Shown piece after piece: positions 25,121 through 64,000 of a DNA stretch of 64,000 nt. The number at the start of each line of letters is the position of its first letter. The first letter of the stretch is position 1. The notes beneath the pieces were generated by a model, which ran no database searches, was not told where the DNA came from, and saw nothing but the letters and a program-made list of their open reading frames with translations. The position numbers and the translations under genes were made by a program. Origin of the DNA: Balanoglossus misakiensis (Eukaryota; Animalia; Hemichordata); the NCBI GenBank assembly GCA_040954595.2, contig CM082597.2, forward strand, positions 2,310,835 through 2,374,834. The letters are read 5' to 3'.

Positions 25121-26340
25121 GTAAATGCCATTGCTAGAAGTCTCCCTTGGGTGTGTTGTGCAACTTGGGGCAGGAGTATCTGTCAGTTGTTCTCTGTTTT
25201 CAAACCCTGGTGTGGGAATGTTTCAAAACAGGACCTTAGCAATCTTTTGACAGGGAGAGACCTGAACATGTTGCATGTTTTTTTTCGATATTCACTTCAT
25301 ATGATGATTGACATTATCATGACAGGCAACCAACAGCTAGATTGAGACCAAAAGTAACTGACAAGCTTCTGAAATACACTGTTAACCCACTCATTGCAAA
25401 CAGAAACTAAAACTGACACAGTTTTCACCTGATCGAATGCTACGTTACGGAATTCACAAAATATGTGATCAAACTACCACTGTTTGCAGTCAGCTTGGTG
25501 ACCCTATTCATATGCTAATTAAATGTCGCGGGTCAAACTTCTGACAGAGATCTGAGTACTGATACGTAAAAGGAAAAACCTTGCCCTAGTGGTTTGCTTC
25601 ATACTCATATCAAAGTCCTGCGACCCCTTTCACCCCTAATTCTCACAACAATGAAATGACCTGCCATAGAGCACCATGGAGTGTTTCATTGTGTTGTCAG
25701 AGAAACGTTTCGTAGGATTTGAAACTGGGTCAGTTTGAAGAATTACAAGGGGAAATGTATCTTGTGATGCTCAGTATGTTGCAGTCGGACTTGACATGAG
25801 TTCTGTTTAGCAACAAGCAATGTCAGTTGGCGGGCACATCCGTAGAGCGTATAGTGTGACAGGAGACACTTGAACCTGCCCTGAATGTATACATTAGGTG
25901 ACCTTCGATGACCCCTGGCTTGGCGGTTCACACTGGACGTAAACGTCGACGCTTAGTATACCACATGTGTATTTTATGTTACATGTCTTAAGTACACACG
26001 CGAAATTCTGTTAAATTGACATTAATTGGCGCGAAACATCTCATTATAGCTATTGGAGCGATGTACGTCAACGGCATAACACCGTATCATTTATCAAGAT
26101 AGCGTACATTTATGTGCTGGCAGGTGCAAAACAAATACGAATGCCGTCTGTTGTGGGTTACCATTAGAGATTTGACAATGCAAATAGCATTATTTCCGTT
26201 TGTGTAGTTTCTGTGGCTTCGATTTGCGTAACGGATGCAACAGATGGTGGTTTTGTTGTAGTTCGTGTCTTTTAAAGGGCAGGGTCATCTTGTCTGCGAG
26301 TGCGGGTACAGGTTCAATAAGACACAAGGCAAGACGTGAA

Positions 26341-26804
26341 GTGTGACTGCTACAGTTTACATCACTGCATACAATGTGGTTGTTACTTTGTATTACACTG
26401 TAGTGTAACTGCTACAATGTACACCATTGCAAACAATGTGGTTGTTACTTTGTATTACACTGTAGTGTAACTGCTACAATGTACACCATTTCAAACAATG
26501 CAGTTGTTACTTTGTATTACACTGTAGTGTAACTGCTACAATGTACATCACTGCAAACAATGTGGTTGTTACTTTGTATTACACTGTAGTGTAACTGCTA
26601 CAATGTACATCACTGCAAACAATGTGGTTGTTACTTTGTATTACACTGTAGTGTAACTGCTACAATGTACACCATTGCAACAATGTGGTTGTTACTTTGT
26701 ATTACACTGTAGTGTAACTGCTACAATGTACATCACTGCAAACAATGTGGTTGTTACTTTGTATTACACTGTAGTGTAACTGCTACAATTTACATCACTG
26801 CAAA
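26341..26804. repeat. 62-bp minisatellite, about 7.5 copies
   Basis: Unit GTGTAACTGCTACAATGTACA(T/C)CA(C/T)TGCAAACAATGTGGTTGTTACTTTGTATTACACTGTA, repeated head-to-tail with no spacers. Confidence 0.95.
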
Positions 26805-29457
26805 TAGTGTGAACCTCTTGTGTAAATGGATCTCAAGAGACCCCTTGCTTTTTAGCGATCACATACTGGATTAAATGTGACAATAGGCGTGCACTGAGAG
26901 ACACTGACAGATTTATCAAAGTAAGGGTCACAGAGCCCCATTTGGTATCGGAAACCTTTGACTTAACATGATATTATAATGCGAAACTAATCCATCGTCA
27001 TCAACTCCCATTTGTTTTGATGGTAACTTGATGAGGTTTCTAACAAATTCAATCAAACTTTGCCAGGGAATTCTCATGAGATGATTCAGGAACGAAAATT
27101 ATTGCACTGTCTGGAAAAGTGACAGCATCAGTCGTGACGTCATGTACACTACACATCCAAGGATGTTCTCATCTAGAAATGAAAAATTGAAATGTGAAAT
27201 GTTGTAGATAATCACAGGGTTGAGGATGATGCACTCAAAGGCTATCAACATCAAATGTTAACACCCCTAATTCTGAATGCAGAGATCCCCAACTCCATCA
27301 GTGATAGCCACTGAGTTGGACCAAACTACAATGACCAATAGGGATAGATGTCTACTTTTATTTCATGAGTGAACGACCTTCTACTGCGGGATGCGTCGAG
27401 AAAACCGAGACTTGTGAGAATGCTCAATTATCGTGACATGAAACCACTTAGCATGAAAATTGAAACAAAAAATGACAGATTACTGTACTGTGGCCTAGTA
27501 AAAGTACGACAGGGCCAGAACGCCTGATGACAAGTCTAGGCCATTGATACAGTAATTCCATTTATCAGGTCGACGGCACTTTCCTTCGAGTTGTACATGT
27601 AGTTCATGATGACACACAAGGTGCATTAGACCTGACAGCTGTGCGAGATTACGACACTTGGATTATTTTTAGGGTGTAGTAGAACTAGAACTACTGGTAT
27701 ACTCAAATGTCTCGTTTTTTGTGAATACAACATTACTGTATCATTGCCTTTTATTTAGGTTAACATGCCCTATCCACCTCAGCAAGCACTGGCAGTCAGA
27801 TGACAACAGGTATCGCAGTTTATTCCACCTTGTCCCTCGGTGCTGTCTCTGTAATGAACTGGAAGGGTGGAATCCCTCCAGACCTGCAACAGAAAATTAT
27901 CGTCGTATATTGAGTTCTCTCTGGAGTTTCTCTTCAATCAGGCTGCCATAGTGAGATCACGAGTTTCAATTCTGTCTGTTTCATATGCACCTGGCATCAT
28001 TTGATTATTCAATTCCACCTGGGTTTGTTGGCAGGGCAGTTTTCATAATTATTTGTCAGTTTCACACATGACATATGGTAGTACAGTCCTGTCAAAGTGG
28101 GAGTACATTACAATTTACAGTAACAGCACCTATCAATTGGGACGTAGGTTGTCATTGGTGGTTTTAAAAAAATTGTAAATTCACTCGGTGGTGACTATTA
28201 TCCTCCCAGCTATCAATGTTTGCAGCAGGTGTCGTTCAGTGTGATTAATTACTCAATTAAGCTGAAAATAATTTTATTTGTTTTTCGTCACCTAAAGAAT
28301 AGGTGATAGAGTCTCGGTCTGTTGGTAATTTCACTGCCCTTTTATCAGGTACAGGGTTGATTTCGTAGGCAGCCAATTAATCATTGTCGGGCGTGATGCA
28401 TGTGAACTTGTGATAAGTGAAGAGTAATCATCACACTTGTCAGAAATGACAAGAATTCAGAAGAACAATTTATTAATTTACATCTACAGGACATTCATGG
28501 AAATCATTCATCTTCTGTTAAATTTAAACAAACTGTGCAGTGAACTTGAATTTCCAATCTTGAAATCATAATTGCTTTTTCGTATGTCATGAAGCGGAGA
28601 AAGCAAAATGATCAAATTCTATTAAAATGTATTTAGTTCGGGTGTTACAGTCGGCCGTCAGCACCTTAAATTGACGGCTGGTAATTAGAGAATGCAGGGA
28701 AATGGGTTTTTGGGAGTTCAAGGTTCCTGTGTCCCAGATACCAAAGCGTACACTACCTGCAACTTTGGCTTAGAATAGAAAATGTTTCGCAGGCGCGGCT
28801 GGCAAACGTGTGCGTCAGTACACTGTCAAGTGGTCGCGTGTAAATTTCAGTAGTTCAAGGAGTGCACTGTGACGATAGATGGAGATTGTTGTTAACTATT
28901 TTTTGGCTGCAAGGAGCTGAGTTGAGACCATCTGTTTCAGTTGAACTCTTGTAAACAATGGTCGAGTTTGCAGCCACTGCAGATGACGTCTGACTGTGAA
29001 TCTAACCACAGTGTAGAACCATCCTTCGCTTAGTAGCCCAGTGGTTCATGTCGCGATTAGTCTGCCTGCAGTGTTTTCTATGCTCGGGCAAGACTGTTCG
29101 GTGATAGAGGCAGGTGATCACCCCTTGTGCTGTGGTACGACCCTACTATTATCAACCATGAGGACAGCTCCATCAACCAGAAAACGGGGGTGGCCATGGG
29201 GTGTTGATGCGTTCGCCTCAGGTACCCGAAAAGGATACATTGATACATCAAACCTGTCCATAGTGGCCAGTCAAGGGGCTTTCCTACACTGGCCTTCATA
29301 GACAGGTTGCCTGTACAGACAGATGTGAATTGCACAGGGACTGTAACAAATTGGTCACTATGAACAAGTGTTCACTATATAGAGGTGGCCACTAGCATAT
29401 GGTTAAATACTGTACTTTCCACATGTTGAACGTACATCATTTTCAACACATCACTAA

Positions 29458-34526
<5,069 letters not shown>

Positions 34527-38110: not shown

Positions 38111-46116
<8,006 letters not shown>

Positions 46117-49547: not shown

Positions 49548-52500
49548 ATGAAGGGCTGTGGTGTGTGTATTCTCGTGCTACTTTTTCTCGTGCTCGCCCG
49601 GACAGAATTTCAATTCCCGGAGTACGATGGAACCACGAGGGTGGTGGATTTCACCGATGTCACTTTCCAACAGAAACTCAAAAGACATTCCCTGGTAGTT
49701 GTCTTCTGCACGGACAAAAATAAAGATGCGACCGCGGCTCGCACCCGAGATATAAACAAACAGATGCTTGAGGTAGGTACGAAATGATTTATGCCCCAAC
49801 CACACACCATGAAAACGTTTAATTTAAAATTGATAATCGTTGCATGGCCGTGAGGAGACTTCGTGTCAACGGTCACATATTGACAAAATAATAATATCTC
49901 TCAAACTATAAATTTCAACTGAGCGTACGCATGTGGCATTCACTTATTTTTTACATTTGGAAAAGTTAAAAAGACTCTTTTCCTATAGTAATCCAATGTA
50001 AGCCACACAATATTCTTGGTTATTTTTCTGTATAAAAGATAATCGAGATAATTTGCTGCTCCGTTGACCCAGAACAATTTGCCTGATGACGCATGTTGCC
50101 GTTTGTAAACATCTCTCGACAAAATACGACCAAATATTTTCAAAGCCAAACAATTAGGGTGTACGCGATAAGGACAATCACTTGTGACCACATGGTTAAA
50201 AGGGTGTGTCTACTCTATGCCTTCTTATGAGTGACCATGTGGGGGCGCACTTTTCTTGTGGACGCTCACGTGAAAACCTGTCATTGGTTAGATCTCAAGT
50301 TCCATATTGGTAACTGGTTAAATTTGCATTAAACTTTGACAATATCATATGTTTGAGTATTTTCATATTTTTTTGATTGATTGCTGAAATGCATTTAAAC
50401 TATCACGCACCCGTCTCATATATTGTGTTCTGTGAAGAGGATTTCAGATTTGTAGTGGCTACATAAAACATCTGTGATGAGTTGATCTGGTGATAATGAT
50501 GTTTGACTTTGGCATCATCTGGACTCTGAAATAGCACTGGCATTATGCCAAAACATTGTGCATATGTGCCTGCAAATGAGGTACTGATAAAGTCTCATCA
50601 ACTATTATTGGTTGACTTGTGTATTTAGGGTAACATATTAAAGCCTATGGGATTACTGTTAACATGGAAAAATACTTTGTTTTTGTTCATGCAACCACGT
50701 TTTCTTGTTTATTAAAGGGACGCTACCCCATTATTTCTGTTTGTGCAACAATTTTTCTTGTTAGTGTATTAAAGGAACACTAGCTGTACCTTTTAGCTTT
50801 TGTACTGTATTTTTATTCAGTGTATCAACTATATTTCCTTTTCATATTTGAGACAGTTTTATGCATGGGCATTGTGACTTCAATAAAATGTCACCACACA
50901 CTATGTGATGTGGCTTGTGTACAGTTGTCAGACACTATGGAAATTAAGTGACACCAAAGCTGATGTGGTCAATGGAAACTACAAATTTATGTCAATATAA
51001 ATTGAAAGCAAGCTCCCAAAGGCACTGCTTGCCCCAGGGTTAATTAAAATACAAAATTTTCAAAATACATAAAGATTGACATGAGCATTCAGTCAAAGCC
51101 AAAGAAGTTTGATGTGTTTATTAAGATTAATTTGATTCAATTATTCTTCAAGTGAGTGAAATATTTGATTGATATCTGCTGAAGGATAATTTGCACTTTT
51201 CAGATAGTTTTATTTTTTATTTGGTGTGTATATTACAGCTGCAAGATTCTATTGTTTTAGCATTTTACATGTCATTCTATTGGACGAGACAGAATCGATG
51301 GCCTACCCTCTAAATAAAGGTACCCAACATACAGATCAGGCAAGCTGCGTGTTCACGTCCACAACTCATACTTGGCATACACTAGCAAGATGAAATTACA
51401 ATCTCCTTTGGTCCAATTTTGAGTAATATCATTCCAACAAGAATGAAATTTCTCACATTAAATGACAATGACGAATGCCTCATACAGAAAATAACTGTTA
51501 AATTATAGATTAGTAATAAATTATGGATATCTGTTATTATCTTTTATGAATGACCTACCTAATAAAACTAAAAGCAATCAGCAATTGTGGGTAATTTTCT
51601 CCCCAGAACAACGTCGATGTTTACAATAGACTGAAGGGGCATCATTTCAGTCTGATATGATGTAGATGCATTATAGATACATTTACAACTGACAGGCAGA
51701 GGGAGGGAGGGGAGAGAGTGAAAGAACAGGGGAAAGGTAGAGAACCAGACGGTTTTTATAAAATAATTGATTTTGTCAGACAATTTTTTGCCTCTGTTAT
51801 TCAACAACTGTATAAATATTACAAATTAATATTGTTTGTAAAATGATGACTGCTTTTCACAGCTCTGTGTTTCATGATAATTGGTTAATATCGCCGACAA
51901 TCATGGTTCCTTCCTACACCACTGCAAATGTCAAAATCTAAATAATATGACATGATTATCTTTCAATCATCTCTAAAATTGGGCTTCACGTGTAATACTG
52001 GTAGCAGAAAGCATCTATTACAATGGGAGATTAAATATCAATTGATGATCAACCAATCAAAAAACATGATCAGATCACATGTCCTACAAAAGGCAAGTCA
52101 TGTGATTAAAACTATCATGCTGCACTACATGTACTTGTACAATTTTATGAAATGGTAACTGTGATAAAACACACTCTATCACTGATATTCTGTTCAAGTT
52201 ATATTCAATTTTCAACAAGAGACAATTAACTCGCTGAGATCTCTGCAAGTAAACGAATATTAGTCTTCTTAAAAGCTAGCCAGGTCCCATCTGATTTACT
52301 GAACTGACATATGTTACTCAGGGATATCACATGTCAACAGTGATTACAGGTCACATTACATTTATCAAAAAAGTTATTAAGCTGATAGCAACAGATGAAC
52401 ATGACAGGAACATTATTGGAAGATCTTTTGATAGAATTTACGCAAGAGCAATTTTGGGTTAAATATTATTTTGGTGAGCAGAACACAGAGATATGCAAAA

Positions 52501-55500: not shown

Positions 55501-58500
55501 TAAAGACATATTATGGCTACCTTCTTTCTTTGATGCTTCAATATTTAGACATTTTGGCTTCAAGATAAGACATCATCTCGACTGAAATGAAACTTGGAGA
55601 CTGCAGATACCTACTTTGTCTGATTGATTTAAATAGCTAGTGATATTGATCCTCTGGATAGATCAGTCCATTTTCAAGATATATTATTCTGAACATGAAA
55701 TATTTCATTTTCTCATCATCATTTAAAAACATGGTGTTTAAATTTAAGATTGAACTTTGAAAAATAAATTAAAAGAGATATAGTGATTCTAAATTGACAA
55801 AAAGAGGAATACACGCACAAACTTGATAAGATTTTAATTTATATGAAAGATGAAAGGAAGTATATTTTAGCTTTAAATGATTTCATGTCTTAAACAGACA
55901 AAATTAGGCATCATTGCTGTCTGTACGAAACTCTCATCAACATATTGATTTTATGTAAATCTTTACTTTACTCTAATGGATTTGTGAATTGAAGAAGCTG
56001 TTTTGAATGCTTCATCATGTCTGTCTATGCCATCTGCATGGTAAATGCCTTTACAAGTCTGATCAGGGACTTTATGGTAGAGTGTCTGTTTACATGTATG
56101 GATAACCGCGTACATATTAAAAGCTGTGAGCTCCTTGGAGGAATATTGATTGAACAGATGCATCTCATTGTCACCGCGGACGCTAACAGCTTTTAAGGTC
56201 ATTGATAGTTCAGAGAGTTCACAGCGTACAATACTTAGCAGAACTTTTAGTGATTCTAATATAGAATTGGTATCTTCCATCTCCATATCCTAAAGTGTAC
56301 ATTAGATAAACAACACCCGCAGAAATCATTGTTGATGACACAGTCATTATGTATTTGGAGCTTACATCATCAATCCAAAGCTTATTTGTCATAGGAACAT
56401 ATTCAATTTCATGATTCAAAATTCCTTTTTATTCAATAACTAATAACTTTCTGTCAGAAATATTTGATAAACCATTCCCCAAGAAACATGTCATACTATG
56501 ATATAGTAGAAAAAGTTAACTACTTAAAAATATTGACATTTGAGAACTATTTTTGTCTTTATATTGATGGTACTTAACTAAAAATAGGGTAGCGTGTTTA
56601 AAACATGCTGTTTAAATAGACTTGATTATGTGCAGGTATGTCTGGTCGCTGCATTTAAGAAAACTGAACTGTCTGTTATCTGTGATGTTAACTTAGATGT
56701 ATGATTCAATGCATAGGTATTTGTTATACTGGGGCAGTGCTGGACCTCAGTACATGAAAATATGGGCAATGATAATTTAAAGCAGTTTACTCTGTCAAAA
56801 TTGGAACTCACTTCTTGAATTTTCAGTAATGAGAATTCTTGAGCGAAGCCCTTTATGGTCTGGATACTTTGAAAGGTTGTCATGGTGACCAGAGATTAAA
56901 TGCATGCATGATTTCATATTATGTATTCTTAGTCTTTTATGAACTGGACTCATCAGTGTTGTCTTGAATGTAAATTTGCATAATCATCTACTGGAACCTA
57001 TCTAATCAGTCTGAGTCAATTCATCATCATTTTAATACCAGTTCTGCATTTATAATAAAGAACATATTATGCAACCATTGTACCCTCTAAGCCAATATGA
57101 CATTCAAGAAAATTTGTATAATACAAAAATGTATATATGTGTATGTATGGAGTCACACAAGGCTTTTGACATGATGATTCCTGTGCAGATATATATATAT
57201 ATATATATATATGCATGCATGACATTCACCAGGAACTTAACAACTTTTCCAATAGTAATTTCCGGGAATGATCACCCCATGAACATAACGACTATGACCT
57301 ATTAACCTAAAATGGTCAATACACTGCAACTGGAGGCCGCTGACTCTCCATTCTTCGCCGCAGCATGATAGCATTTCATGAACGCAATCTGAAACCGCAT
57401 AATTCCAATCGTCAGCGACAGATTCAAAATAAATTGGATCAAGTCTGTCCTGGCTGTTCAGACTGCAGCCTCGTTATACTCTTGTTAAAGCCCCAGTATT
57501 TCTCGTGTGCATCCATTTTTCATCATCGAAAAAAGCCCGTTTTTCCAGTACATCCATCATGGAATACTATATAATGAAGATGTAAGAAAGGTTTGGGCAA
57601 CTGTAGCTACGTGCAAGCTGTAAATATTGCCTGTAACACTTGAAATGATGCGCGGGTTTGTTTACAATGGAAATGTTGTACATGTCGATCAGCAAACGTG
57701 CCACTTTGACATTTTGATGGTCAGACCATTTTCGGATTTGATCTGGTTCCATCGACTGATTTCTCCCATAAAGTTATCTTCCCAAAATTTCGCCGAATTA
57801 GTGCGCATTTCTTCGCTGAGTCGCTTGATTTGGGGCGACCAAACCTCTTCCGCATAGATTCACATTTGAGTGCGCATGCGCACTAGTCACGTGTGTCAAC
57901 ATTAGCCTGACTCACGTGACTTTCTGTCCGGACAGAAAGTCATTCTTCACTCGTTATATTGTAAATTGTATGAGTTTATCAGCAGAGTTGGGGATGATGA
58001 CTGTTCGATTCAGTATCAATTATCATCTACTTTTAGAAATTATAGATGCCGTTTCAAACAAAATTTTGCCCCTACGAGAAATACTGTGGCTTTAATAGAG
58101 ACAATTTCAGTCTAAGGAGATGAGGCATTGCACCAGTAATGAACTTTGGGCGAAAATCCGTTAAAGGCCATGTTGTAAAAGATCCCTGCTGGGGTCGAGA
58201 TCAAGTCTCTTTAAAGTACAAGAGAATGTCTCCCTAATTTTCTAATGCAAATTATGCTATACTGTGAATACATGTTTGATCACATGTATCACTAGTATCA
58301 GATCTCTGTAGATATAACTTTCTGTGTGTGTATGCATGCTGTATGTATGTATGAGCATATATTTTTTATTTATTTATCAGACATAAAAATTGTGATAATT
58401 GCATTTGATATCAAAATATATTGAAATATATATTTGTGCTTCAGCTTGCAGCTCAAATCATGGAACCGAGGAATGTGGTTGTTGGCATAGTTGACCTAGA

Positions 58501-61500
58501 TGACGACAAAGAAGCAGCAAAAATCATAGGTATTGTATTTTTAAAAAAGACTCCTCTAAAAACTCGTCATCTACACTTAGCTTGTGTATACTAACTCTCA
58601 TAGCCCTAGGTCAGAGCTACATTAACACTGATGTCATTACTATACATAAAGCCAGTTTTTAATGCTGGGTTTGAAATTTCATGAGATCTATGATGTTCAG
58701 TCCCTTACTACAACAAAGGTTACCTAGGTAAACATTAGTTGTCCTTTACTTCACGCCACGAGTGACCCATCTGGCATTTTTTCAGGACAATTAGGGCTTC
58801 CTGATATCTGACTGTTTTCAATTTGATTCCAATACTCAGCTAGAAAAACTGGCTCACCTCAATTTTCATGCGGTTATAGGTTACACTTACTGCATTCGTG
58901 CATCTTGTATTGTGTGTAATTGAGTACAGAATTCATTACTGAATTATAATTATATTTATTGTACAGGTGCATCTCATGCAGGACAAATATTTGTATACAA
59001 GAATGGTAAAAGGATAGAATTTACAGGCCATAGAGCATCAGAAATACTTATAAGTTTTCTCATAAAGGTAAGAACAATTATCTTCCTGATCCCAAATGAT
59101 CACTTTACATGTGATAGACGTACAAACAGAAAAACAATGTACCGGGTATGTAAAGTTGTGTGTAAAACATAGTGTATTCCTAGACCACTTTTGTCATAAT
59201 AATTTTTCAGATTTGAAAAAGGGGTGATTCATAATAGTAAGTTTGATATATTCCAGTTGTTCGATGATCCAGTGACGACTATAGACGGCAAAGCTGAGAA
59301 GAGAGCCTTTGAGAAAGTGGATTTGCCAAAGGTTATCGGATACTTCGAAAAAGACAGCAAAGGTTAGTGATCGAAATAGCGCCCCTACAGTCATGTTGAA
59401 ATGGTAGTTTTGTTTTTTATAGTGAGTTGGAAAAGCACTGCAGTTTGTGCACTGATAGTAAATAAATGTATTTTTCCATCTTTTGAAGAATACAAAGAAT
59501 TTGAAGATGCTGCCCAGACCTTTCAACCTGTGATACCATTCTATGCATGTTTTGACAAAAAGGTGAGTGTACTGACTGCCTGTAAATACTAAATTAAAGA
59601 AGAGAATTGAACTCCATTCTATATTAAATGACATCGCAATGTAACAGGAGATGTGAAAGACTAATTTTTAAGAATAAGCAGATAAGAGAATTTGAATTAT
59701 ATTTTTTTACATGAACATGCAGCAAATTTCAACTTTCAGATTTAATGTGTTCTGTAATGTTTTGATTGATTTTTGATTGATTACTACTTACTCTAGTATT
59801 ATAGACTTTTGTTTACCTATTGGCTTACAGCTTGCGAAGTCTTTTCATCTGAAAAAATTAAATTTGATTCAGTTTATAAGACCCTTTGATAAAGCCTTAG
59901 AAATTCCACAAGTGGTAAGTTGCTTTTATTTTTTATTATATTGTTCGATGTTTTCCTGGGTTATTTTAATCCATAATAACTGCTGAAGGCAATAGTATGA
60001 CAATGACATTTCTTTTTAAAAGCTAACATTTTAAATGGTTTTTCGTTGACAGCCTGCATCTTCCAAGGATGTACAGAGATTCATACAAAGAAACAAAAAA
60101 GGAGGACTGAGAAAACTAAGACTGGAAGACTTGCATGACACCTGGGTAAGTACAAACACACCTGGTGAAGTGTCACGCCACCTGGATTGTTTCTCAATAT
60201 TTCCTGAAACATAGCACTTATTTGAGTGTTTTTGCGGTTGTTATCCAGAAGAAAACCAACACAGAAAAACTTTACTCAACACTTATTCTTTTTAATGTGG
60301 ATTTTGATGATATCAATAAAGGATAATTTGAAACACATAACTCAAGGAAATGGACCTTAAGTCCAGCCTTATGATAGTGTCAGTGTCATCAATAACGGAG
60401 CATGTGCATTTTTTACATGTACCATTGTCCGCGGTCTGCTTGGCTTGGCTATGTTGTTCTGTGTCGTCCCCTGACCAAACCTGTGCGACCAACCCCTATA
60501 GTTTGCATGTCTCTTTTCAGTGTGTGTCTCATATTTTTGTGGACCAATCACAGCAAGTGTCATGCACCATCTAATAAACATGGTAATCTAATTTGGCACC
60601 AGCTAGCTGCAGATTGTGCGACACTCGTCTAGGAGCATTCGACAGACGAACATTAAAAGTTTCACCCAAACCTTTGTACAACACTTGTTGATTTTTTAAA
60701 GTGAATGTACAGATGCTATAGCCCAAGGTGTTTATCTGCACACCGTGAAGTGCACTTCACGGAAGTTCGGTTACCACTATATGATAGTGCACCTCAAACA
60801 TGCTAGCCTGTGAGGCCAAGGGATATTTTGAGGGACGTCTTCCTGCCCGCGATCAGCTTTGGCAAGCACAGATATCCAAAGTTTGGTAATAAACTGTGCC
60901 ATCGCGTATTTCACTTCCGGTATATTGAAAAGAGTCAACTTTTGTTGATGTATAAAACTAAAATACAGAAGAAAGTGATCGAAGTTAGAGCTACCATCCC
61001 TGTAAGGCCTTGCTAGTGTGTTTATTCACTCTACAGTCATAACTGCATGATGCATGTACACAAGACGTCTCCTATTCACTTTGCATGCAGAGACTGTTTG
61101 CGGATATACCTGGTATAACTTGGGTAAGTCAGCACTTTACAACTTAAAACTTGACTGATTATTAGACCAACTGCACTGTAATTAATGCATGTCAGTTTTG
61201 CTGTTATGATGGCTTTGCATTGTATTGTTGTTTTGTGCCGTTAGACAATGATCGACATCTGAAGCAATGGCGATAACATGTACTATATGTGAAGAAGCAT
61301 ATTTAGAAAACTGTTATTGTTTTGAAATCCCTCTATTAGATTGACACAGATTGTATTCCAAACCTTAAATGTATATTCTGGTATATTTACTTCTATCAAC
61401 ACAGGAACATGATTCAAAGACACATCTTATTGTAGCATTTGCAAAGCCACAAACATCAAGGGGATCAGAGTTTTTCTCTGTGTTGAAGAAACTGGCAAGA

Positions 61501-64000
61501 CATTACAGTGACTCGCCGAAATTCAGTTTTGTCTGGATTGATCCAGAACCATTTGCAATGGTAAGGAAAGATATTTGCTGTGAGGGATGGAATATATCAG
61601 AAAGATGAAATTGGAATTGTCTGTTTAGTGATTTTTGCTCTCTTAATTAGGCATCGTCTGATTGACACTGAATTCTTTCCAGATGCATGATTACTGGGAA
61701 AATTTGTATGCCATTGACGTTGACCAACCAAACATCGGATATGTGAAAATCAAAGAGGTAAGAATTGAATTACTGTTGTCTATGTGATTTGGAACTTATG
61801 AAAACGTTGATGCGATTTATATCTGATAAGATTAATGTACATGTTATTTAAACTTGATCAATTCATCAGATAAGTTTTTCTTTTTTTGAAAAACAGAATG
61901 AAAGCTCATGGTACCCCATGCCAAGTGATTCTGTACCACTTGCAAAAGAATTACAGAAGTGGTTAGAGAAGATTATTGCTCGTTCTGTCTTCATTGACAC
62001 TGACGGCGATGGTATCCCAGATCATTTAGATGATGATATCGATGGAGATGGTATCCCAAATGAAACGGATATTGACAGTGATGGCGATGGTATGTCAGAC
62101 TATCTAGAAAAAGACATTGATGAAGACGATGGAGATCTCGATGGAATTCCAGATTACTTGGAAAAAGACAGTGATGGAGATGGCATACCAGATTACTTAG
62201 AAGATTCTGATGGTGATGGCATTCCTGATTATATGGAAATTGATACAGATGGAGATGGGATTCCCGATTACCTAGATGATGATATTGATGGAGATGGGAT
62301 TCCAAATGATGAAGATGATGTTATCGATGGAGATGGAATACCGAATGATGAAGATGAGGATGCAGATGGGAATGGTATTCCCGATTACCTGGAAAGGGAC
62401 ACGGATGGAGATGGCATTCCAGATTATTTGGACGATGATATTGATGGAGATGGGATTCCAAATGATGAAGATGATGATATCGATGGAGACGGGATTCCAA
62501 ATGATGAAGATGATGATGATGATGGCGATGGCATTCCTGATGACTTAGAGAAAGACACAGATGGAGATGGCATTCCTGATTATTTGGACGATGACATTGA
62601 TGGAGATGGGATTCCAAATGATGAAGATGATGATGATGGTGGAGATGGCATTCCTGATGACTTAGAGAAAGATACGGATGGAGATGGCATTCCCGACTAT
62701 TTGGACCAGGATGATGATGGAGATGGTATCCCTGATCACTTGGAAGTAGACAGTGATGGTGATGGCATTCCAGATTACCTTGAAGACGCCAATGGAAATG
62801 GCATTCCTGATTATATGGAAAAGGATACAGATGGAGATGGGATTCCCGATTATTTAGATGATGATATTGATGGAGATGGGATTCCAAATGATGAGGATGA
62901 TGATATTGATGGAGATGGAATCCCAAATGATGAAGATGAGGATGCAGATGGGAACGGTATTCCCGATTACCTGGAAAGGGACACGGATGGAGATGGCATT
63001 CCAGATTATTTGGACGATGATATTGATGGAGATGGGATTCCAAATGATGAAGATGATGATATCGATGGAGACGGGATTCCAAATGATGAAGATGATGATG
63101 ATGATGGCGATGGCATTCCTGATGACTTAGAGAAAGACACAGATGGAGATGGCATTCCTGACTATTTGGACGATGATATCGATGGAGATGGGATTCCAAA
63201 TGATGAAGATGACGATGATGATGGCGATGGCATTCCTGATGACTTAGAGAAAGACACAGATGGAGATGGCATTCCAGATTATTTAGATGATGATATTGAT
63301 GGAGACGGGATTCCAAATGATGAGGATGATGATATTGACGGAGATGGTATCCCAAATGATGAAGATAATGATGATGATGGCGATGGCATTCCTGATGACT
63401 TAGAGAAAGACACAGATGGAGATGGCATTCCTGACTATTTGGACGATGATATCGATGGAGATGGGATTCCAAATGATGAAGATGATGATATTGATGGTGA
63501 TGGTATTCCAAATGATGAAGATGATGATGATGATGGAGATGGCATTCCTGATTACTTAGAGAAAGACACAGATGGAGATGGCATTCCCGACTATTTGGAC
63601 GATGATATCGATGGAGATGGGATTCCAAATGATGAAGATGATGATGATGATGGAGATGGCATTCCTGATGACTTAGAGAAAGACACAGATGGAGATGGCA
63701 TTCCCGACTATTTGGACGATGATATTGATGGAGATGGGATTCCAAATGATGAAGATGATGATGATGATGGAGATGGCATTCCTGATGACTTAGAGAAAGA
63801 CACAGATGGAGATGGCATTCCAGATTATTTGGACGATGATATTGATGGAGACGGGATTCCAAATGATGAAGATGATGATATCGATGGCGATGGGATTCCA
63901 AATGATGAAGATGATGATGATGATGGAGATGGCATTCCTGATTACTTAGAGAAAGACACAGATGGAGATGGCATTCCCGACTATTTGGACGATGATATTG
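49548..64000 (+). CDS. CASQ: Calsequestrin-family protein with a very long C-terminal Asp-rich TSP3-like repeat tail (3' end outside the window)
   Basis: Exons: 49548-49772, 58445-58529, 58967-59067, 59257-59362, 59489-59562, 59831-59914, 60053-60145, 61405-61560, 61683-61757, 61897->64000. Signal peptide MKGCGVCILVLLFLVLA, then calsequestrin motifs FPEYDG..RV, LAAQIME, LFDDPV, YKEFEDAAQTFQPVIPFYACFDK, LRKLRLEDLHDTW, HLIVAFA, VWIDPEPF, YWE...ID..QPNIG, ELQKWLE. Splice phases are consistent throughout. Confidence 0.93.
54870..55201. mobile_element. TTAA-flanked MITE (Kolobok-like ends), ~330 bp
   Basis: Left end TTAAAGCTCCAAAAGCTGCCATTTT; reverse complement of the right end TTAAAGCCCCCATAGCTGCCACTTT. 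Confidence 0.7.
57485..58095. mobile_element. TTAA-flanked MITE (Kolobok-like ends), ~610 bp
   Basis: Left end TTAAAGCCCCAGTATTTCTCGT; reverse complement of the right end TTAAAGCCACAGTATTTCTCGT (21/22 identical including TTAA). The interior is more CpG-rich than the flanking intron. Confidence 0.78.
61996..64000 (+). repeat. Coding tandem repeat, 39-bp/13-aa unit DxDGDGIP(D/N)xxxx, at least 51 copies
   Basis: Hand translation of the frame continuing exon 10, e.g. DTDGDGIPDYLDD-DIDGDGIPNDEDD-DDDGDGIPDDLEK. No stop codon up to the window end. Confidence 0.95.

What the first reader, a model, noticed from the sequence alone, without database searches (positions are those of the whole stretch)
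61897..64000. Calsequestrin fused to a >660-aa array of thrombospondin type-3-like Ca2+-binding repeats
Seen: the last visible exon of a clear calsequestrin gene continues in frame past ...ELQKWLEKIIARSVFI into at least 51 copies of a ~13-aa unit, DxDGDGIP(D/N)xxxx. The array has no Cys and no stop before the window ends, which is probably why the ORF track misses it. Known: vertebrate calsequestrins end in a short disordered poly-Asp/Glu tail. The DxDxDGxxDxxD 13-mer is the thrombospondin type-3 motif, which wraps about 2 Ca2+ per motif. Inference: this may be a different design of ER/SR calcium store, with a polymerising thioredoxin-fold scaffold carrying an ordered Ca2+ array that could bind around 100 or more ions per chain. 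If secreted, it could instead be an Asp-rich mineralisation protein. I do not know of this architecture being described, but I cannot search to confirm novelty.
Basis: partly seen in the sequence, partly recalled or inferred. Interest (0 to 1): 0.9.

Follow-up and report, generated by a model that had tools for sequence, protein, structure and literature searches.

The report
Calsequestrin with thrombospondin-like calcium-repeat tail
An animal gene for the calcium-storage protein calsequestrin continues in one open frame into at least 51 thrombospondin-like acidic repeats, which are likely translated and likely hold calcium inside the cell in place of the usual plain aspartate tail.

Summary
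Observation confirmed. Ten GT-AG exons (49548 to beyond 64000) give one open frame of 1034 codons: a signal-peptide-like start, a complete calsequestrin core (43% identical to a nemertean calsequestrin; exon sizes match hagfish), then 51 Cys-free 13-mers (668 aa, 319 D/E). Changes between repeat copies are mostly silent (pN/pS 0.03-0.19, no stop), so the array is very likely translated. It scores as Pfam TSP_3, but only 14 of 51 units fit DxDxDGxxDxxD strictly (48 loosely), and like arrays occur in bacteria. The core is not acidic (+6 against -28 in cat CASQ), like other non-chordate calsequestrins, which have short tails ending in xxEL (12 of 12 complete non-vertebrate C-termini fetched). So nearly all calcium capacity would lie in the array: likely an independent route to an ER/SR calcium store. 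Not shown: RNA, the C-terminus, location, calcium binding, folding, polymerisation. A secreted or mineral role stays open. No relative with this build and no paper was found, but the searches were weak for animal genomes. The scan had not noted it on other DNA.

The parts
49548..49772 (+). Calsequestrin exon 1 (ATG, hydrophobic signal-peptide-like start, N-terminal arm with PxYDGxxR)
   Evidence: PF01216 E 1.3e-5; hydropathy
58445..58529 (+). exon 2, 85 nt
   Evidence: aligned; same size as hagfish exon 2
58967..59067 (+). exon 3, 101 nt
59257..59362 (+). exon 4, 106 nt (hagfish 112)
59489..59562 (+). exon 5, 74 nt
59831..59914 (+). exon 6, 84 nt (exons 6+7 = 177 nt = hagfish 131+46; intron at another place)
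60053..60145 (+). exon 7, 93 nt
61405..61560 (+). exon 8, 156 nt (= hagfish exons 8+9, 55+101; one intron fewer)
   Evidence: PF01216 33.5 bits; 11 PDB calsequestrin sequences, no other hit
61683..61757 (+). exon 9, 75 nt
61897..61995 (+). [quoted passage not shown]
   Evidence: alignment to six calsequestrins
61996..64000 (+). array of at least 51 Cys-free TSP3-like units, Dx[DN]x[DN]G[IM][PS][DN]xx[DE]x, three kinds A (..PDYLDD), B (..PNDEDD), C (..PDxLEK) in A-B-C and A-B-B-C order; open at the window end
62090..62091 (+). possible alternative splice donor in unit 3 (untested); if used it would drop most of the array
   Evidence: score 8.4; the nine real donors, on which the matrix was trained, score 5.3-11.1

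Best explanation
This is a calsequestrin gene of a likely non-chordate animal whose last exon carries at least 51 thrombospondin-type-3-like acidic repeats that are likely translated and likely act as a calcium buffer in the ER/SR lumen. Shown: gene structure, orthology, in-frame fusion, silent-change bias, a near-neutral core and a tail of net charge about -305. Inferred: the signal peptide takes the chain into the ER; each Dx[DN]xDG loop wraps Ca2+ as in thrombospondin, COMP and BamM, so the tail folds when the lumen is full and unfolds as Ca2+ is released; the thioredoxin core supplies ER/SR residence and possibly dimers rather than capacity. The array grew by tandem duplication of 39-nt units and of A-B-C blocks inside the terminal exon, at the place where chordates grew poly-Asp, so high acidic capacity would have been added to calsequestrin twice by different chemistry.
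For: One open spliced frame; exon 10 holds the end of the third thioredoxin domain, so it cannot be skipped. pN/pS between copies 0.027, 0.08, 0.19 for the three unit kinds (47 of 51 units used); distinct variants 45 silent, 29 replacement, 0 stop, Fisher p 1e-10, 1.5e-7, 1.9e-7 (49 of 51 units); all length changes are whole codons. TSP_3 102 bits against a cut-off of 25; best PDB sequence hits COMP, BamM, TSP-1, the A-B pair in register with a COMP motif pair; BamM's matching C-terminal domain has no regular secondary structure and is held by seven metal ions assigned as calcium (PMC12611786, passages); type 3 repeats fold on Ca2+ and unfold without it (PMC12291261, passages). ER residence looks ancestral: 12 of 12 complete non-vertebrate C-termini fetched end in xxEL. 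Core charge +6, Lineus +11, coral +7, against Ciona -26 and cat -28; pre-duplication calsequestrins have few acidic tail residues (PMC7582152, passage).
Against: The stop codon and C-terminus lie beyond the window and no genome is held, so ER retention is untested. Only 14 of 51 units fit the strict motif, and the disulfides of thrombospondin repeats are absent. Structure models are weak: pLDDT 49 alone, 63 with a self-alignment; best Foldseek E 3.5e-3, TM 0.24; VIA Z 2.7, rmsd 4.6 over 49 residues. A fair splice donor lies at 62090. Repeat copies are related by duplication, so the variant counts are not independent events. No second species with this build was found, so conservation across species is untested.
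Confidence: 0.6

Rival explanations
1. The protein is secreted and the array serves as an Asp-rich calcium or mineral-binding matrix (ossicles, tube, statolith, mucus), calsequestrin having been co-opted for the outside.
For: The repeats are 42% Asp; TSP3-type loops in the hits are extracellular or cell-envelope (COMP, TSP-1, BamM, OmpA); a review names calsequestrins as possible sources of acidic mineralising proteins (PMC8906573, passage); two N-glycosylation sequons.
Against: All 12 complete non-vertebrate relatives end in xxEL; no second calsequestrin gene is seen in this window and most invertebrates surveyed have one copy (PMC7582152 section 5), so the ER role would have to be given up, though Lineus has two.
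Confidence: 0.2
2. ER/SR protein, but the array is only a long flexible polyanion that screens Ca2+ as poly-Asp does; the likeness to TSP3 is motif convergence without an ordered wire.
For: No Cys, no capping domain in view, low model confidence; 37 of 51 units depart from the strict motif.
Against: G6 is kept in 51 of 51 units, D1, G4, I7 and P8 in 50 of 51, and the 13-residue period in 47 of 51; charge alone would not need this. Bacteria have evolved or kept the same Cys-free 13-residue period.
Confidence: 0.12
3. The array belongs to a minor long isoform; the main product splices at 62090 (or another site) to a downstream exon and is an ordinary short-tailed calsequestrin.
For: Donor-like site at 62090, in the one unit that reads M-S in place of I-P.
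Against: Strong silent bias over the whole array; in hagfish and axolotl the matching exon is the last one.
Confidence: 0.06
4. Assembly artefact or bacterial contamination joined to the exon.
For: Like peptides are common in prokaryotes (71 loci); one internal 206-bp exact repeat could misstate the copy number.
Against: No N in the window; 38 different DNA versions among 51 units; the junction is in frame at the place where tails begin; best DNA match among the 81 fetched loci is 66% over 322 nt; GC3 0.25 in the array, 0.40 in the core.
Confidence: 0.02

Closest known systems
Non-chordate calsequestrins (Lineus longissimus XP_064650789.1, Pocillopora, Rhopilema, Trichoplax; PF01216)
   Same: Core aligns end to end, 43% to Lineus; near-neutral core; R33, K180, D307, P308 of CASQ2 numbering kept.
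   Different: They end 10-60 residues after the core in a weakly acidic tail with xxEL; none of those fetched has a repeat array.
Chordate calsequestrins (CASQ1, CASQ2, Ciona, Branchiostoma japonicum, hagfish)
   Same: Four exon sizes identical and two sums identical to hagfish; acidic extension encoded in the last exon.
   Different: Their core is strongly acidic and the tail is short plain poly-Asp (PMC12037077 passages). Here the core is +6 and the tail is over 660 aa of periodic G/I/P-containing loops. The window's core falls outside the chordate clade (100/100) in the tree.
Thrombospondin/COMP type 3 repeats (Pfam TSP_3 PF02412; PDB 3FBY, 1UX6, 1YO8)
   Same: 13-residue DxDxDG loop; unit A plus the next D matches a TSP4/Nematostella 14-mer at 10 of 14 places (PMC3575656 passage); A-B pair in register with COMP.
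   Different: No Cys, no EGF domains in view, at least 51 motifs against eight repeats with one or two motifs each (PMC5993830, whole text); E at position 12 in 18 units.
Prokaryotic Cys-free TSP3-like arrays (Pfam TSP3_bac PF18884; BamM 9N2D; L065 Opitutales MAG, L012 Alphaproteobacteria MAG)
   Same: Cys-free 12-14-residue period; 35 and 25 contiguous units in L065 and L012; 5 of 71 loci have five or more in a row.
   Different: Other protein contexts, no thioredoxin core; DNA only 64-66% alike over 300-400 nt, so no recent transfer is shown.

Membership tests
Calsequestrin (PF01216) | Three thioredoxin-like domains matching the family over their whole length | tested here: met
   7 of 10 exons hit PF01216 in order; spliced residues 1-359 align to Lineus calsequestrin at 43%; exon 8 hits only calsequestrins in PDB
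Calsequestrin (PF01216) | No redox CxxC in the thioredoxin domains (feature recalled) | tested here: met
   Cys only at 4, 7 (signal-peptide region), 54 and 193
Calsequestrin (PF01216) | N-terminal signal peptide | tested here: met
   hydropathy up to 3.9 over residues 5-16 after M-K; hydropathy only, no dedicated predictor
Calsequestrin (PF01216) | Orthologous exon layout | tested here: met
   85, 101, 74, 75 nt identical; 84+93 = 131+46; 156 = 55+101
Calsequestrin (PF01216) | ER/SR lumen residence (xxEL end in non-vertebrates) | not testable with these tools
   C-terminus beyond the window; no genome
Calsequestrin (PF01216) | Ca2+-dependent oligomers, high-capacity low-affinity binding | not testable with these tools
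   needs biochemistry; the spliced core could not be handed to a folding tool
Chordate-type acidic calsequestrin (CASQ1/CASQ2) | Strongly acidic core | tested here: not met
   +6 against -28 (cat) and -26 (Ciona)
Chordate-type acidic calsequestrin (CASQ1/CASQ2) | Short poly-Asp/Glu tail | tested here: not met
   periodic array of 668 aa or more instead
Canonical thrombospondin type 3 repeat (TSP_3) | Pfam TSP_3 above cut-off | tested here: met
   102.4 bits, cut-off 25, 18 stretches
Canonical thrombospondin type 3 repeat (TSP_3) | DxDxDGxxDxxD consensus | tested here: inconclusive
   14 of 51 strict, 48 of 51 relaxed; COMP itself has N at position 9 in some motifs
Canonical thrombospondin type 3 repeat (TSP_3) | Cys pairs forming disulfides between repeats | tested here: not met
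   0 Cys in 701 codons; filed as TSP3-like, not canonical
Canonical thrombospondin type 3 repeat (TSP_3) | Ca2+-wrapped wire fold | tested here: inconclusive
   pLDDT 63; all 6 Foldseek rows are TSP/COMP/OmpA/BamM but E at best 3.5e-3; VIA Z 2.7, rmsd 4.6, 49 aligned
Thrombospondin protein family | EGF domains before the type 3 repeats | tested here: not met
   a calsequestrin core stands there

The most novel reading that the evidence does not exclude
A second design of intracellular calcium store in animals: a charge-neutral, ER-retained calsequestrin core carrying a Cys-free wire of 50 or more thrombospondin-type loops that folds and unfolds cooperatively with luminal Ca2+, evolved independently of the chordate poly-Asp solution and, as far as I could find, the first use of this extracellular motif as an ER/SR buffer in an animal.
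Probability: 0.4. Interest if true: 0.8.

Novelty: new variant of a known kind. Interest (0 to 1): 0.63.

Why it matters
Non-chordate calsequestrins are weakly acidic, and it is open how calsequestrin became a high-capacity store. This gene suggests that a second lineage added capacity at the same spot, the last exon, with other chemistry and without acidifying the core. It splits scaffold from buffer, so one can test whether the core polymerises or holds ER partners without surface acids, and whether a cooperative, folding buffer releases Ca2+ differently from poly-Asp. It is also a natural, disulfide-free, 13-residue-periodic metal-binding polymer. If it proves secreted, it would be a real case of the proposed recruitment of calsequestrin into mineralisation.

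Tried and rejected
No genome is held for the window, so the end of the gene could not be read. No RNA holder was listed, so no reads were laid. Word-based homologue search with exon 8 alone found nothing. With the alignment A1 no calsequestrin of 747-2130 aa scored among 6701 candidates (the tool calls this weak), and the near-length search returned only 4 proteins, missing many known members, so it is shallow. The full HMMER search with exon 8 gave 19 proteins, the longest 426 aa. The metagenome scan gave 10 loci: 5 spliced sequences with short tails, 5 genomic pieces that do not reach the last exon. The protein atlas did not answer in 10 tries. AlphaFold on the repeats alone was uninformative. 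The wide fold search reported one row only. The 559-aa His-rich frame on the minus strand is rejected as a shadow: third-position changes of the plus frame fall on its second positions. No complex prediction was sent. Papers: calsequestrin + 'thrombospondin type 3' 0; calsequestrin + thrombospondin + repeats + aspartic + invertebrate 0; calsequestrin + hemichordate 2, neither describing this in the passages read; one search counted TSP3 twice, so it is a poor test (calsequestrin in 0 of 40 listed, 324 matched); 'acidic-repeat protein' in 0 of 15 listed. DGDGIP-type strings were absent from the 3 readable supplements of PMC12037077 and the 1 of PMC7582152; their FASTA alignments and one large PDF could not be read and might hold such a sequence, although PMC12037077 says tails were trimmed. 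The original TSP and COMP structure papers were not held, so '2 Ca2+ per motif' is recalled.

Full report
Observation. The window from 61897 on is one open + frame of 701 codons with no stop and no Cys. After 33 codons it turns into 51 units that begin at 61996, 668 aa with 279 Asp, 40 Glu and 14 Lys/Arg. Tandem Repeats Finder sees periods of 39 and 117 nt over 62140-64000. Shuffled versions of the exon reach at most 138 open codons in 500 trials.

The gene. Nine upstream exons, read from the sequence, all have GT-AG ends and join with exon 10 into 1034 open codons. Pfam Calsequestrin hits 7 of the 10 exons in profile order; exons 2, 6 and 10 miss on their own. Exon 8 finds 11 PDB sequences, all calsequestrins. 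The spliced core aligns over residues 1-359 with Lineus longissimus calsequestrin at 43% and with coral ones at about 40%. Hagfish exon sizes in the supplement of PMC12037077 (234, 85, 101, 112, 74, 131, 46, 55, 101, 75, last) match ours (225, 85, 101, 106, 74, 84, 93, 156, 75, last), with one intron fewer and one at another place. The first 33 codons of exon 10 finish the third thioredoxin-like domain, so the exon is needed, and the array starts where relatives begin their tail. In a 15-row tree the core stands on its own branch, outside the chordate, cnidarian-placozoan and Lineus groups (the tree is unrooted, P0009 and P0019 were cut to their aligned parts, fragments under 200 aa were left out). 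The host is thus likely a non-chordate animal that these searches did not sample; I could not name it.

Is the array translated? Units fall into three kinds, ordered ABCCCCABBCABBCABCACCCABBCABBCABCABBCABBCABCABCABBCA. Within kinds pN/pS is 0.027, 0.08 and 0.19 (47 of 51 units; the four of other length dropped). Counting each variant once against its kind's majority gives 45 silent, 29 replacement and 0 stop changes, where silent changes are about a fifth of those possible (Fisher p 1e-10, 1.5e-7, 1.9e-7; 49 of 51 units; transitions alone 33 silent of 45 against 41 of 117 possible). Copies share history, so the p values are rough, but the bias is large. All length changes are whole codons. 38 different DNA versions among 51 units and a longest exact repeat of 206 nt argue against an artefact, though the copy number could be off. 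Against: a donor-like site at 62090 scores 8.4 where the nine real donors score 5.3-11.1 on a matrix trained on them, so a short isoform is possible. No RNA could be laid.

What the repeats are. Pfam TSP_3 scores 102 bits (cut-off 25) and TSP3_bac 56. The thrombospondin consensus is DxDxDGxxDxxD (PMC10702128 passages; PMC5993830 whole text). It fits 14 of 51 units strictly; 19 units have N at 9 and 18 have E at 12; the relaxed form fits 48. By sequence the nearest solved proteins are COMP (E 1.4e-9), BamM (0.0024) and TSP-1 (0.047); the A-B pair lines up with a COMP motif pair, and unit C lies over the Cys-bearing insert. BamM's C-terminal domain lacks regular secondary structure and is held by seven metal ions assigned as calcium (PMC12611786 passages), which shows that such a region can be ordered by metal; type 3 repeats fold on Ca2+ and unfold without it (PMC12291261 passages). 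My models add little: pLDDT 49 and 63, Foldseek rows limited to COMP, TSP-2, TSP-1, OmpA and BamM at E 3.5e-3 or worse, VIA Z 2.7; these hits lean on sequence likeness. The repeat class is common in prokaryotes: 71 loci from a capped scan, 43 with ten or more motifs, 5 with five or more in a row, two with 35 and 25. DNA likeness is low, so the source (a thrombospondin exon, a bacterial gene or fresh growth from a GAT-rich tail) is unresolved. The array type is not new; its place on calsequestrin is what I could not find.

Comparison within the family. Of the complete non-vertebrate C-termini fetched, 12 of 12 end in xxEL and none has an array (P0002, P0003, P0005, P0012, P0013, P0035, P0036; L001-L005; several group with corals in the tree and are not independent; the fetched vertebrate rows are partial or aberrant models and were not counted). 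Amphioxus has an acidic core and plain poly-Asp with no xxEL (supplement of PMC12037077). Over the same span the core charge is +6 here, +11 Lineus, +7 coral, -26 Ciona, -28 cat. PMC7582152 (abstract, sections 3 and 5, passages, part 1 of the supplement) notes that pre-duplication calsequestrins have few acidic tail residues and likely low capacity. So this protein keeps the old neutral core and puts about 319 carboxylates in a tail.

Mechanism. Most likely (0.6) the chain enters the ER, stays there or in muscle SR, and the tail binds on the order of 50-150 Ca2+ (bounds from one ion per loop up to charge neutralisation; inference), folding when the lumen is full. Per mass this need not exceed vertebrate calsequestrin (recalled 40-80 ions on about 45 kDa); the novelty is the chemistry and the split between scaffold and buffer. 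Polymerisation is not shown and is doubtful in its vertebrate form, since many surface acids are missing. Rivals: secreted mineral or matrix protein (0.2), plain polyanion tail (0.12), minor isoform (0.06), artefact (0.02). The unseen C-terminus decides between the first two.

Novelty. No paper held joins the terms (weaker checks 63, 77, 85). No calsequestrin longer than 455 aa turned up in any search, but these searches were shallow for animals, no animal genome collection or InterPro was on hand, and an automatic annotation may exist. Five look-ups in this scan's notes showed nothing on this architecture; one note agrees that the repeat class is common in bacteria. Verdict: a new variant of a known kind, interest 0.63.

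Noticed in passing
window 38600-46116 (+): Coatomer alpha (COPA) exons end about 3.4 kb before the calsequestrin ATG, same strand. COPA lies near CASQ1 on human 1q23 (recalled; PMC12037077 names PEA15, DCAF8, ATP1A2 but not COPA), so this may be an old linkage or chance.
   Followed up: partly
window 30762-34526 (+): Protein kinase exons (Pfam Pkinase) with a His/Gln-rich last exon that looks like DYRK1 (name recalled from the motifs).
   Followed up: partly
window 59831-60145 and 61405-61560: One calsequestrin intron sits 47 nt upstream of its hagfish position and one is missing; coral-like genomic pieces L007-L010 break at the missing one, while fragments P0001 and P0004 appear to lack it too.
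   Followed up: partly
P0002, P0003, P0005, P0012, P0013, P0035, P0036, L001-L005: All complete non-vertebrate calsequestrins fetched end in a KDEL-like xxEL and, except Ciona, have neutral cores, so the ancestral protein may have been an ER resident rather than a high-capacity buffer.
   Followed up: partly
L065:2128-4458 and L012:1180-4044: Two bacterial MAG proteins carry very long Cys-free TSP3-like arrays (35 and 25 units in a row); L065 has a signal-peptide-like start and almost nothing else but a C-terminal part, L012 has the array after a membrane-like segment.
   Followed up: no
window 26340-26811 and 45015-45167: A 62-bp minisatellite (7.6 copies) and a TGTA microsatellite inside a COPA intron.
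   Followed up: no
P0003, P0035: Lineus longissimus has two calsequestrin proteins, 70% identical, although PMC12037077 reports no duplications outside chordates in its set.
   Followed up: no
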